Assembly (NCBI RefSeq): GCF_009914755.1
Contig: NC_060940.1
Reading direction: 5' to 3' (one strand)
DNA length: 64,000 bases
Origin: the human T2T-CHM13v2.0 reference genome, Homo sapiens
Each line of letters starts with the position of its first letter. The first letter of the stretch is position 1. A program made the translations under genes and the position numbers. The notes below the pieces were generated by a model that did no database searches, was not told where the DNA came from, and worked only from the letters and a program-made list of their open reading frames with translations. This document shows, in pieces, positions 11,201 through 14,200 of the stretch.

Positions 11201-14200
11201 CTGCACTCCAGCCTGGCAGCAGAGTGAGACTCCATCTCAAAAAAAGAAAGAAAATCAGCCAGGCATGGTGACCTGTGCCTGTAATCCCAGCTATTCTGGA
11301 GGCTGAGGCACAAGAATTGCTTGAACCCAGGAGGAGGAGGTTGCAGTGAGCTGAGATCTTGCCACTGCATTCCAGCTGCCTGGGAGACACAGCAAGACTC
11401 CGTCTCAAAAAAAAATAAATAAATAAATAAATAAATAATACAGGCCGGGAGCAGTGAGTGGCTCATGCTTGTAATCCCAACACTTTAGGAGTCTGAGGTG
11501 GGTACATCATTTGGGGTCAGGAGTTCAAGACCAGCCTGGCCAACATAGTGAAACCCCATCTCTACTAAAAATACAAAAACTAGCCAGGCGGTAGTGGCAT
11601 GCACCTGTAATCCCAGCTACTCAGGAGGCTGAAGCAGGAGAATCGCTTGAACCTGGGAGGCGGAGGTTGCAGTGAGCCGAGATCGGGCCACTGCACTCCA
11701 GTCCGGGCAAGAGAGTGAGACCCTGTCTCAAAAAATAGTAAATAAATAAAATTTAAAAAAAAATACAACATCATTAATCTACCATATTCCTTATTCACCA
11801 GCATTTAGTGATGTTGGGCCAGACTCACTGTTTCTCTTAGAGACACTGTGGATGTCCTCATCCTTTCCCTTTAAAAAGGGGCAGCATGATGGATAAGCTA
11901 GACCTTAGCACTGTGGAACATGTCATCAGGACCCTCTGCAAGGGACCTTCGAATTGTGCATTTTCCTGGGGCAGGTTTCTCCTCCCTATCGGCTTTTCTC
12001 CTTTCACCCTCATAACCCTGGCACTTGGTGGATGGAACTCAGCAGCTTGCGTTCACTGAATACCAAGATATAACCCTGACAAACCCACTGCCTACTACCA
12101 CTTAAATAACTGAGCTTGAGGCCGGGTACGGTGGCTCACGTCTGTAATCCCAGCACTTTGGGAGGCCAAGGTGGGCAGATCATGAGGTCAGGAGTTCGAG
12201 ACCAGCCTGACCAACACGGTGAAACCCCATCTCTACTAAAAATACAAAAATTAGCCGGGCTTGGTGGTGCTCACCTGCAATCCCAGCTACTTGGGAGGCA
12301 GAGGCAGGAGGATCACTTGAGCCCGGGAGGCAGAGGTTGCAGTGAGCCGAGGTCATGCTACTACACTCCTGCCTGGGCGACAGAGCCAGATTACGTCTTA
12401 AAAAAATAAAAATAAAAGTAAATAAATAACTGAGTTTGGTCCAGCTTTGAGGTAGAAATATAAATGTTTCCCATTCCCCTCTGAGGGTTACCATAAAATA
12501 TTTAATATAAAACATCTTAAACTTTTTTTTTTTTTTGAGATGGAGTGTCTCACTCTATTGCCCAGGCTGGAGTGCAGTGGCATGATCTCAGCTCGCTGCA
12601 ACCTCTGCCTCCCGGGTTCAAGCGATTCTCCTGCCCCAGCCTCCCTAGTAGCTGGGACTATAGGCGCGTGCCACCACACCTGGCTAATTTTTTGTATTTT
12701 TAGTAGACAGGGTTTCACCGTGTTAGCCAGGATGGTCTCGATCTCCTGACCTCATGTCTTTTGTTTTTTTTTTTTCCTTTTTCTGGAGAACGGGGTCTCG
12801 CTATATTGCCCAGGCAGGTCTCGAACTCCTGGGCTCAAGCTATCCTCCCGCCTCTTAGCCTCCCTGAGAGCTGGGATTACAGGCGTGAGCCACCGCGCCC
12901 GGCCGATCTCCTGACCTCATGATCTGCTCACCTCGGCCTCCCAAAGTGCTGGGATTACAGGTGTGAGCCATCACGCCCAAGCCCAAGCTTTTTGGATAAG
13001 TGTACAGGCCCTAGCAGGTGTTTGGTTTGCCTTGTTTTAAGTCTGTTTTATAATGTTGTCTCCTTTGATATTCAAAACTAACAACATCTGTTACCTACTG
13101 AACTTTTCCATTCAACAGCTTCTCAGAATTTATAGAATTCCCCAATTTTCTTGCTTACCTTGCCTTTCCTGGTGCTTCCAGCATGAGCAAGAACAGAGTT
13201 TGGAGAATTGATTAGTCTTTTTTTTTTTTTTTTTTTTTTTGAGACAGAGTCTCTCTGTGTTGCCCAAGCTGTAGTGCAGTGGCTCCATCTCGGCTCACTG
13301 CAACCTCCCACTCCCAGGTTCAAGAGATTCTCCTGCCTCAGCCTCCCGAGTAGCTGGGACTACAGGTGCCCGCCACCACACCCGGCTAATTTTTGTATTT
13401 TTTTAGTAGAGACAGGGTTTCACTATGTTGGCCAGGCTGGTCTTGAACTCCTGACCTCGTGATTTGCCCACCTCTCCCTCCCAAAGTGCTGGGATTACAG
13501 GCTTGAGCCACTGCACGGCGAATAATATATTAGTCTTGATAAGAAGGTATTGATTTAACCCAGTGAGCACTTGGGGTTGATCTGTTGTATCTTGTTGGTC
13601 TCCAAGACTGTCTCACACCCAAGCTCATCTGGGCAGACACTCTTCCTTCTCCTCACCGACTGCTTAATCCATATGTTTTGCTCACACTTGTCCAATGTTG
13701 AGAAGCAATAGAGGACTAGGGTTTGGAATATTACTGCTCCATGGACTATAGCTGAGCAGCATTACAGGGCAGAGTTTCTCAACTGGGTTCACATTAGGGC
13801 TCTCAACTTCCCTGGAGTTTGGGTAGTCCTAATCCTACTTTTATAAGCAAAGACACTGAGGTTCAGAGATGTTAAGCGGCATGCCCAAAATCACCAGCAA
13901 GCAAGAGGAGTGAACACAAGATCTATCTGGCAACATAAATCACACACCCCCACCCCATGGATTGTTGGAATTACTTCTTCCTTTTGTTCCACCTGAGCCT
14001 GCCTGCCCACAGTAGCCCTTCCTGTTGGTCCCCAAATGCCTTCCTAGGATGGCTGTTCTAAGAGGCTTTTCCTGTTCTACTGTCATAATGAACATCTATG
14101 CAGTTCATTGCAGTTTACATGGTATTTTGCATATCTCATTTTTTTTTATTTATTTAAAAAAAAATAGGCCGGGCACGGTGGCTCACACCCGTAATCCCAG

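What the first reader, a model, noticed from the sequence alone, without database searches (positions are those of the whole stretch)
12740..12921. Apparently very young, tail-less BC200 (BCYRN1) retrocopy with a TSD, inserted inside an Alu
Seen: a 148-nt monomer on the minus strand (12757-12904) interrupts the left arm of a host Alu and is flanked by an exact direct repeat GATCTCCTGACCTCA(TG). It is not a generic FLAM: it has BC200-specific features (CAGCTCTCAGGGAGGCTAAGAGGCGGGAGGATAGC, GACCTGCCTGGGCAATATAGCGAGACCCCGTTCTCCAG, AAAAAGG-An-CAAAAGACA) and its CpGs are intact. It stops inside the A-rich domain at a 2-nt TG/CA microhomology, has no added poly(A), and the target is not the canonical TTTT/AA L1 endonuclease site. 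Established: BC200 is a Pol III, neuron-enriched RNA domesticated from an Alu monomer and known to have spawned retropseudogenes. Inference: near-identity to the master gene suggests a recent, possibly human-specific or polymorphic insertion made by internal priming. That would mean a domesticated ncRNA gene still behaving as a mobile element, here landing in a germline-expressed gene.
Basis: partly seen in the sequence, partly recalled or inferred. Interest (0 to 1): 0.85.

Follow-up and report, generated by a model that had tools for sequence, protein, structure and literature searches.

The report
Young tail-less BC200 retrocopy inside Alu
A 150-base copy of the brain RNA gene BC200 (BCYRN1), with no base substitutions against its source gene, sits inside an older Alu repeat in an intron of TSNAXIP1; it is a very recent member of an already known family of BC200 retrocopies.

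Summary
Window 12757-12904 (minus strand), plus the first two bases (CA) of the repeat that follows it in the element's orientation, matches the chr2 BCYRN1 gene at 149 of 149 aligned bases. The only difference is one extra A in an A-run. It starts at RNA position +1, stops in the A-rich domain, has no added poly(A), and is flanked by an exact 17-bp target-site duplication. Removing it restores a continuous Alu.

In T2T-CHM13 only one other retrocopy (chr18) has a 122-nt 5' domain identical to the gene. All 8 CpGs are intact, while the host Alu keeps 6 of 26. The copy is therefore young: median about 2-5 My, 95% bound about 9-23 My, using recalled rates.

Whether it is human-specific or polymorphic could not be tested, because no other human or ape genome is held.

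The kind is already in print: more than 200 BC200 retrocopies, recent ape-lineage BC200 insertions, and "tailless retropseudogenes" made by internal priming. In my census, 50 of 58 BC200 copies with a TSD lack a pure-A junction, so tail-lessness is normal. The non-A-rich target is a minority feature (14 of 59). Interest is modest.

The parts
12757..12904 (-). BC200 (BCYRN1) retrocopy: 5' Alu-monomer domain (122 nt) plus part of the central A-rich domain, ending ...CAAAAGA. With CA of the adjoining repeat it covers gene positions 1-149.
   Evidence: 149/149 identities to L002 (BCYRN1) with one extra A. Rfam Metazoa_SRP sub-threshold hit at 12785-12903, 65.5 bits against a gathering score of 70, as expected for an Alu-type 5' domain.
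12905..12921 (.). Target-site duplication, the copy at the 5' end of the element (sense strand CATGAGGTCAGGAGATC).
   Evidence: identical 17-mer at both sides.
12740..12756 (.). Target-site duplication, the copy at the 3' end of the element. Its first two sense-strand bases (CA, 12756-12755) also match BC200 positions 148-149, a 2-nt microhomology.
12922..12983 (-). Host Alu, 5' part of the left arm, upstream of the insertion.
12523..12739 (-). Host Alu, rest of the left arm, right arm and A14 tail (12523-12536). The first T4 run on the minus strand follows at about 12512-12509.
   Evidence: The host keeps CG at only 6 of 26 inferred ancestral CpG positions.

Best explanation
This is a processed, 3'-truncated, tail-less retrocopy of BC200 RNA, the Pol III transcript of BCYRN1 on chr2.

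Inferred mechanism: the L1 ORF2 protein reverse-transcribed a BC200 RNA by target-primed reverse transcription. BC200 RNA has no 3' poly(A), so the nicked target strand (3' end ...CATG) primed inside the single-stranded central A-rich domain, at the GACA interruption, using only 2 nt (CA/TG) of complementarity. cDNA synthesis ran to the RNA's 5' end. A staggered second-strand break 15-17 bp away then produced the duplication.

The target lay in the left arm of an older Alu in intron 1 of TSNAXIP1, antisense to that gene. The nick site (sense strand AGAT/CATGAG) is not the usual A-rich L1 endonuclease site.

The copy carries the internal A and B boxes but not the 100-bp upstream promoter that BCYRN1 needs, and it has no terminator of its own. 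It is therefore most likely an inert pseudogene.

It is one of the two least-diverged BC200 retrocopies in this genome. It probably inserted within about the last 10 My, and more likely than not after the human-chimpanzee split.
For: Shown:
- 149/149 identity to BCYRN1 with one extra A, and 8 of 8 CpGs intact.
- L002 is the true gene: its upstream flank contains the published BC200 -100, -80, -60 and -40 promoter primers.
- The copy starts at +1 and shares no upstream flank with the gene.
- An exact 17-bp TSD, with the host Alu restored on excision.
- Genome-wide, the 122-nt 5' domain has 13 places at 3 or fewer mismatches. Only 3 have 0 mismatches: the gene, this copy and chr18 L003.
- A BC200-specific 28-mer has 140 places at 2 or fewer mismatches, against 0 for the reversed control.
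- Census of 66 independent copies: 58 have a TSD. In 50 of those 58 the last 6 nt before the 3' TSD are not all A. None of the 58 reaches the 3' C-run.
- The breakpoint ...AAAAGA|CA recurs in L065, and ...AAACGA|CA in L024.
- The A-rich region is unpaired in the predicted fold.
- In the youngest copies, 21 of 25 mismatches are at CpG sites. The host Alu has lost about three quarters of its CpGs (6 of 26 kept), so this locus is subject to normal CpG decay.

From print:
- BC200 is an active source gene with more than 200 retrocopies.
- BC200 is the main contributor to recent monomeric Alu insertions in great apes.
- Tailless retropseudogenes arise by internal priming in A-rich or single-stranded regions, with 2-18 nt of target complementarity.
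- BC200 transcription falls below 10% without its upstream 100 bp.
Against: - The target does not fit TT/AAAA or the tailless-class consensus TT/WAAAAWW. Only 14 of 59 sampled copies have 2 or fewer A in the first five TSD bases.
- A 2-nt microhomology is expected by chance once in 16, so it proves nothing for this single copy.
- L1 involvement is inferred, not shown.
- The dating rests on recalled substitution rates, and the clock is noisy. Six of 66 copies keep all 8 CpGs. These include L036 and L063, which differ from the gene at 5 and 7 non-CpG sites. They also include the chrX pair L011/L012, which has no substitutions but lacks the T of GGCTAAGAGG.
- No other human haplotype or ape genome could be compared.
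- Kuryshev 2001 and Kojima 2011, which may already list this locus, are not held.
Confidence: 0.8

Rival explanations
1. Same BC200 cDNA origin, but priming occurred at a pre-existing nick or break (L1 endonuclease-independent, or replication- or repair-associated) and not at an L1 endonuclease cut.
For: The target AGAT/CATGAG has no A-rich start. The insert is 3'-truncated with only 2 nt of microhomology. A minority of other copies show similar non-A-rich targets: L003, L024, L038, L040, L056, L065.
Against: A clean 15-17 bp TSD and a full-length 5' end are typical of endonuclease-dependent TPRT. From recall, endonuclease-independent insertions usually lack TSDs and carry deletions. Here, excision restores the Alu exactly.
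Confidence: 0.15
2. The insertion is older and shared with other great apes, at least 7-15 My. It is intact by chance or because it has been poorly methylated.
For: With pedigree-like rates, P(0 substitutions) is still 0.43 at 6.5 My and 0.14 at 15 My. Six of 66 copies keep all 8 CpGs, some of them clearly old.
Against: With human-chimpanzee phylogenetic rates (recalled), P(0) is 0.16 at 6.5 My and 0.015 at 15 My. The flanking host Alu has lost about 20 of 26 CpGs, so the locus is not protected. Only 2 retrocopies genome-wide have a perfect 5' domain.
Confidence: 0.3
3. It is a generic free left Alu monomer (FLAM-C type), or the product of recombination within a dimeric Alu, and not BC200.
For: The 5' 120 nt of BC200 is FLAM-C-like. 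Monomers can also arise by recombination.
Against: There are zero substitutions against BCYRN1 over 149 nt, including the BC200-specific AAAAAGG-A(n)-CAAAAGACA domain. The best genome hits are all BC200 copies. Own TSDs inside a host Alu exclude recombination.
Confidence: 0.01
4. It is a DNA-level copy of the BCYRN1 locus, by duplication or gene conversion.
For: Near-identity to the gene.
Against: Homology starts exactly at the transcription start and includes none of the gene's flanks. A TSD is present. Both junctions are unique in the genome.
Confidence: 0.02
5. The insertion created a new Pol III unit: the BC200 5' domain plus the rest of the host Alu and its A14 tail, about 396 nt to the first T4. 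This unit is expressed or even mobile.
For: The internal A and B boxes are identical to the gene. The next T4 lies just beyond the host A-tail.
Against: The upstream 100 bp needed for BC200 transcription is absent. No second copy of either junction exists in the genome. No expression data were examined.
Confidence: 0.03

Closest known systems
Human BC200 (BCYRN1) retropseudogenes (Kuryshev et al. 2001, J Mol Biol 309:1049; seen only as cited)
   Same: Derived from BC200 RNA, dispersed, flanked by TSDs, and carrying the state of the source gene at the time of insertion. This copy carries the current state: CCAG, and the T in GGCTAAGAGG.
   Different: It has the least divergence in this genome, 0 substitutions, shared only with chr18 L003 for the 5' domain. 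It lies inside an Alu and has a non-A-rich target. I could not check whether the locus is already in their list.
Tailless retropseudogenes (Schmitz et al. 2004, recalled; Noll et al. 2015, PMC5322556, passages read)
   Same: Full-length at the 5' end, truncated at the 3' end in an A-rich single-stranded region, no oligo(A) tail, perfect TSD, and the target overlaps the RNA end. The overlap is 2 nt, the lower limit of their 2-18 nt range.
   Different: Their consensus target TT/WAAAAWW is not met. BC200 is not named in the main text or in the 6 supplement files searched. No held paper contains both 'BC200' and 'tailless retropseudogenes'.
Recent Alu monomer insertions in great apes (Kojima 2011, Mol Biol Evol 28:13; seen only as cited)
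   Same: Lineage-specific monomeric Alu insertions for which BC200 is stated to be the main source.
   Different: The paper itself is not held, so I cannot say whether this locus is among them.
Rodent ID elements from BC1 RNA
   Same: A neuronal Pol III RNA gene acts as source gene. The copies keep the 5' domain and A-rich region and lose the 3' unique part (for the BC1/ID relation; the structural detail is recalled).
   Different: Different RNA origin (tRNA-Ala) and far higher copy number.
Canonical L1-mediated Alu or processed-pseudogene insertion
   Same: TSD of 15-17 bp and an RNA intermediate.
   Different: No poly(A) tail and no TT/AAAA target.

Membership tests
BC200 (BCYRN1) retropseudogene | Closer to BCYRN1 than to any other sequence, including the BC200-specific A-rich domain | tested here: met
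   149/149 identities with 1 extra A. BCYRN1 is the best non-self hit of 40 scored. Only 3 places genome-wide have a perfect 122-nt domain.
BC200 (BCYRN1) retropseudogene | Begins at the RNA 5' end and lacks the gene's flanking DNA (RNA intermediate) | tested here: met
   the upstream flank is host Alu, not the BCYRN1 upstream sequence. The +1 position agrees with the promoter constructs.
BC200 (BCYRN1) retropseudogene | Flanking target-site duplication | tested here: met
   Exact 17-bp repeat.
Tailless retropseudogene | 3'-truncated relative to the source RNA, with no added oligo(A) | tested here: met
   Ends at gene position 147-149 of 200. The last 6 nt before the TSD are AAAAGA.
Tailless retropseudogene | Truncation in a single-stranded or A-rich region | tested here: met
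   The central A-rich domain is unpaired in both the MFE and centroid folds. The fold as a whole is no better than shuffles, z = 0.38.
Tailless retropseudogene | Target complementary to the terminal 2-18 nt of the retained RNA | tested here: inconclusive
   2 nt (CA) overlap. This is at the lower limit and expected by chance in 1 of 16.
Tailless retropseudogene | Target consensus TT/WAAAAWW | tested here: not met
   The target is at/CATGAGG.
Canonical L1 endonuclease TPRT insertion | TT/AAAA-type target and a 3' poly(A) tail | tested here: not met
Endonuclease-independent L1 insertion | No TSD, often with a target deletion (recalled definition) | tested here: not met
   17-bp TSD, and the host Alu is restored exactly on excision.
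Human-specific or polymorphic insertion | Empty orthologous site in apes or in other human haplotypes | not testable with these tools
   Only T2T-CHM13 is held (one search states it has no relatives here).

The most novel reading that the evidence does not exclude
The insertion is human-specific and still polymorphic, and was primed from a nick not made by the L1 endonuclease. That would show that BCYRN1 is a live source gene in modern humans, and that its tail-less RNA can enter the genome at non-canonical sites by minimal-microhomology priming.
Probability: 0.08. Interest if true: 0.55.

Novelty: new member of a known kind. Interest (0 to 1): 0.27.

Why it matters
This copy marks the most recent detectable activity of BCYRN1 as a retroposon source in this genome. 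If the site is empty in apes or in some people, it dates BC200 mobility to the human lineage and gives a simple 165-bp presence/absence marker.

Together with about six similar copies, it also gives clean examples of L1-type integration with almost no A-rich target and 2-3 nt of priming homology. These bear on how relaxed ORF2p priming can be.

Nothing suggests an effect on TSNAXIP1, and the general phenomenon is already established.

Tried and rejected
- Rfam scan: only a sub-threshold Metazoa_SRP hit and Alu-derived microRNA-family hits, all far below their gathering scores. There is no BC200 family hit, so the scan was no help in telling BC200 from other Alu monomers.
- Kuryshev 2001, Martignetti and Brosius 1993, and Kojima 2011 are not held.
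Those tables could list this site.
- Noll 2015 supplements: 0 mentions of BC200 or BCYRN1 in 6 files; file 1 was not searched.
- Literature searches: TSNAXIP1 + BC200 gave 0 papers. BC200 + 'tailless retropseudogenes' gave 0. BCYRN1 + retrotransposition + polymorphic + insertion gave 2 reviews, neither about a polymorphic BC200 copy judging by title and abstract.
- Family-internal clock calibrated on the oldest copies: rejected, because differences from today's gene mix changes in the source gene with decay of the copy and so inflate the rates.
- First automated estimate of the gene end coordinate and microhomology: the end coordinates were wrong because of an alignment end-gap setting. Only its TSD calls were kept, and one spurious TSD (L054) was dropped. 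The class labels A1, A2, U1 and U2 come from regular expressions and are approximate.
- Search for secondary copies of the BC200-host Alu chimera: none found.

Full report
**What is there.** The window shows an exact 17-bp direct repeat (GATCTCCTGACCTCATG on the + strand) at 12740-12756 and 12905-12921, enclosing 148 nt.
- On the minus strand the enclosed DNA begins GGCCGGGCG... and ends ...CAAAAGA.
- The next two bases, CA, belong to both the repeat and the source RNA, so the homologous stretch is 150 nt (12755-12904).
- The flanking DNA is an Alu on the same strand (about 12523-12983).
- I deleted the insert and one repeat copy in a script. The result aligns as one continuous Alu across the junction in 62 of the 70 printed rows, and 61 other Alus of the window aligned to it over at least 270 nt.

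**What it derives from.** The window's own genome (T2T-CHM13) could be searched.
- The 148-nt query gave 40 scored matches at 95-100% identity out of 3208 first-look candidates. The best non-self match is chr2:47,340,355.
- That locus (L002) is BCYRN1. The 100 bp upstream of the match contain the published BC200 promoter primers for the -100, -80, -60 and -40 constructs of Kim et al. 2017 (PMC5537265, methods table seen). It runs on into the 3' unique region, C-run and T4.
- Against it the window copy has 149 identities, 0 mismatches and one gap, A12 instead of A11.
- Homology starts at the first transcribed base and includes none of the gene's upstream flank. The copy was therefore made through RNA.
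- A generic FLAM or AluJ origin is excluded by the perfect match across the BC200-specific A-rich domain. I had no FLAM or Alu consensus to align directly.
- Rfam gives only a sub-threshold SRP-Alu-domain hit and cannot separate BC200 from other monomers.

**How it compares with the family.**
- A BC200-specific 28-mer (end of the monomer plus the start of the A-rich domain) has 140 places at 2 or fewer mismatches, 32 of them exact, against 0 for the reversed control.
- The full 122-nt 5' domain has only 13 places at 3 or fewer mismatches without indels. Three are perfect (the gene, this copy and chr18:66.82 Mb, L003), 4 have one mismatch, 5 have two and 1 has three.
- In the copies with at most 4 ungapped mismatches to the gene in the 122-nt 5' domain, 21 of 25 mismatches are at CpG sites. 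CpG decay is thus the first thing to happen to a new copy, and this copy has all 8 CpGs.
- The host Alu keeps CG at only 6 of 26 inferred ancestral CpG positions. Four of the 26 may be subfamily-diagnostic sites and not ancestral CpGs. Either way, the locus is not sheltered from CpG decay.

**Age.** Using recalled rates, the expected number of substitutions in the 150 nt is 0.13-0.35 per My.
- That gives a median age of 2.0-5.3 My and a 95% upper bound of 8.7-22.9 My.
- With human-chimpanzee phylogenetic rates, P(no substitution) is 0.16 at 6.5 My, 0.08 at 9 My and 0.015 at 15 My.
- The clock is noisy. Six of 66 copies keep all 8 CpGs. Two of them differ from the gene at 5 and 7 non-CpG sites. 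The chrX pair L011/L012 has no substitution but lacks the T of GGCTAAGAGG, which many older copies also lack.
- My reading is that the copy is young and probably hominine. I put about 0.65 on an origin after the human-chimpanzee split.
- Human-specific or polymorphic status could not be tested, because no other human haplotype or ape genome is available here.

**Mechanism.** I examined 70 loci:
- the 30 best hits;
- all remaining 0- and 1-mismatch rows;
- two of its 2-mismatch rows.

Forty of the 140 places were not listed by the tool, and the other 2-mismatch rows were not fetched. I dropped the gene itself and three segmental duplicates (L012, L017, L027). That left 66 independent copies, counting this one.
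- 58 have a recognisable TSD, after one spurious call (L054) was dropped.
- None of those 58 reaches the 3' C-run.
- In 50 of the 58, the six bases before the 3' TSD are not all A.
- End points cluster in four places. These classes come from regular expressions and are approximate:
  - the first A-run (about 19 copies);
  - around the GACA interruption (about 14);
  - at TAAGCG|TAA (about 21);
  - further into the unique region (about 4).
- At the TAAGCG|TAA breakpoint the TSD typically begins TAA, so the target overlaps the RNA sequence.

This is the architecture described as "tailless retropseudogenes". That class arises by internal priming of L1-type target-primed reverse transcription in A-rich or single-stranded regions, with 2-18 nt of target complementarity and a TT/WAAAAWW target (Noll et al. 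2015, PMC5322556, passages read). The A-rich domain of BC200 is unpaired in the predicted fold.

The window copy fits this class. It is full-length at the 5' end, ends at ...AAAAGA|CA, has no tail and has a perfect TSD. The same breakpoint occurs in L065, and with one difference in L024, which also sits in an Alu.

**What is unusual.** The target is at/CATGAGG.
- 45 of 59 sampled TSDs have at least 3 A in their first five bases, and 14 of 59, including this one, have 2 or fewer.
- The 2-nt overlap is too short to be evidence on its own.
- The nick was therefore either an off-consensus L1 endonuclease cut (my preference, because of the clean 15-17 bp TSD and the exact restoration of the host Alu) or a pre-existing nick.
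- L1 involvement is inference from the class, not something shown here.

**Function.**
- The copy has the gene's internal A and B boxes. It lacks the upstream 100 bp, without which BC200 transcription falls below 10%.
- It has no terminator of its own. The first T4 on its strand is about 396 nt downstream of its start, beyond the host Alu's A14 tail.
- Both junction 30-mers are unique in the genome at 0 mismatches. The other hits, at 2-3 mismatches, are ordinary Alus. The chimera has therefore not been copied further.
- It lies in TSNAXIP1 intron 1, antisense to the gene, by the hub's annotation, with no annotated exon or functional element over it.
- I regard it as an inert pseudogene.

**Known or new.**
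- BC200 as an active source gene with more than 200 retrocopies is in print: Kuryshev et al. 2001, as cited in PMC11581171 and PMC9148063 (passages).
- The Repbase review states that BC200 is the main contributor to recent transposition-derived monomeric Alu insertions in great apes, citing Kojima 2011 (PMC5753468, passage).
- Neither original paper is held, so I cannot say whether this locus is already listed.
- No held paper contains both TSNAXIP1 and BC200, or both BC200 and 'tailless retropseudogenes'.

**Verdict.** This is a real, correctly described, very recent member of a known kind. The idea that it reveals new behaviour of a domesticated RNA gene is not supported. Its claim to be human-specific or polymorphic is open and easy to test.

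Noticed in passing
L003 (G000 chr18:66,820,114-66,820,300): This is the only other retrocopy with a 122-nt 5' domain identical to BCYRN1. 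It extends into the 3' unique region, ends at ...GTAACTT|CCCTC with no tail, and has a non-A-rich TSD (CTCTATTAACCTGTCTG). Its A-rich domain is rearranged relative to the gene. It is a second candidate for a very recent insertion.
   Followed up: partly
L024 (G000 chr17:29,651,389-29,651,540): A BC200 copy also inserted into the left arm of an Alu. It ends at ...AAACGA|CA, the same GACA breakpoint, with a 15-bp TSD starting CATTTTGG and a non-canonical target (at/CATTTT).
   Followed up: partly
L008 (G000 chrX:138,032,512-138,032,720): A full-length BC200 copy (196 nt aligned, 2 CpG changes). It includes the C-run and terminator T's, followed by an A-run, so it looks like a polyadenylated full-length transcript. 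My script found no TSD.
   Followed up: no
L011/L012 (chrX:70.16 and 70.19 Mb), L016/L017 (chrX:71.21 and 71.38 Mb), L022/L027 (chr21:12.15 Mb and chr13:17.92 Mb): Pairs of BC200 copies with identical or near-identical flanks and TSDs. The two chrX pairs are in opposite orientation. The copies were therefore carried along by later segmental duplications (X-linked inverted duplications and acrocentric short-arm or pericentromeric duplications).
   Followed up: no
66 BC200 copies: The copies record ordered changes in the source gene: CCAC then CCAG before the A-rich domain, and GGCAAGAGG or GGCAGAGG then GGCTAAGAGG. However, T-less copies with 0-1 CpG lost (L011, L016, L018, L019, L025) overlap in decay with T-bearing copies that lost 4 (L020, L023). 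The cause may be clock noise or two concurrent sources; it is unresolved.
   Followed up: partly
window 12757-12788, + strand: Read on the TSNAXIP1 sense strand, the antisense A-rich domain forms a long pyrimidine tract (T4 G T12 CC T5 C) followed by TGGAG, which looks like a 3' splice acceptor. GT and GC donor-like sites (CAG|GTGTGAG near 12959, CAG|GCGTGAG near 12881) lie downstream. No exon is annotated here in the hub's table.
   Followed up: no
window 12320-12690: Rfam hits to MIR8562, MIR2646, mir-1268, mir-3135 and mir-1285 are all far below their gathering scores and lie on Alu sequence and an A/T-rich spacer. They are Alu-derived look-alikes, not microRNA genes.
   Followed up: no
window 12132-12412 (+) and 12400-12440: Another Alu, in the opposite orientation to the host Alu, ends in an (AAATA)n-like A-rich tail just upstream of it. 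The two form an inverted Alu pair about 110 bp apart.
   Followed up: no
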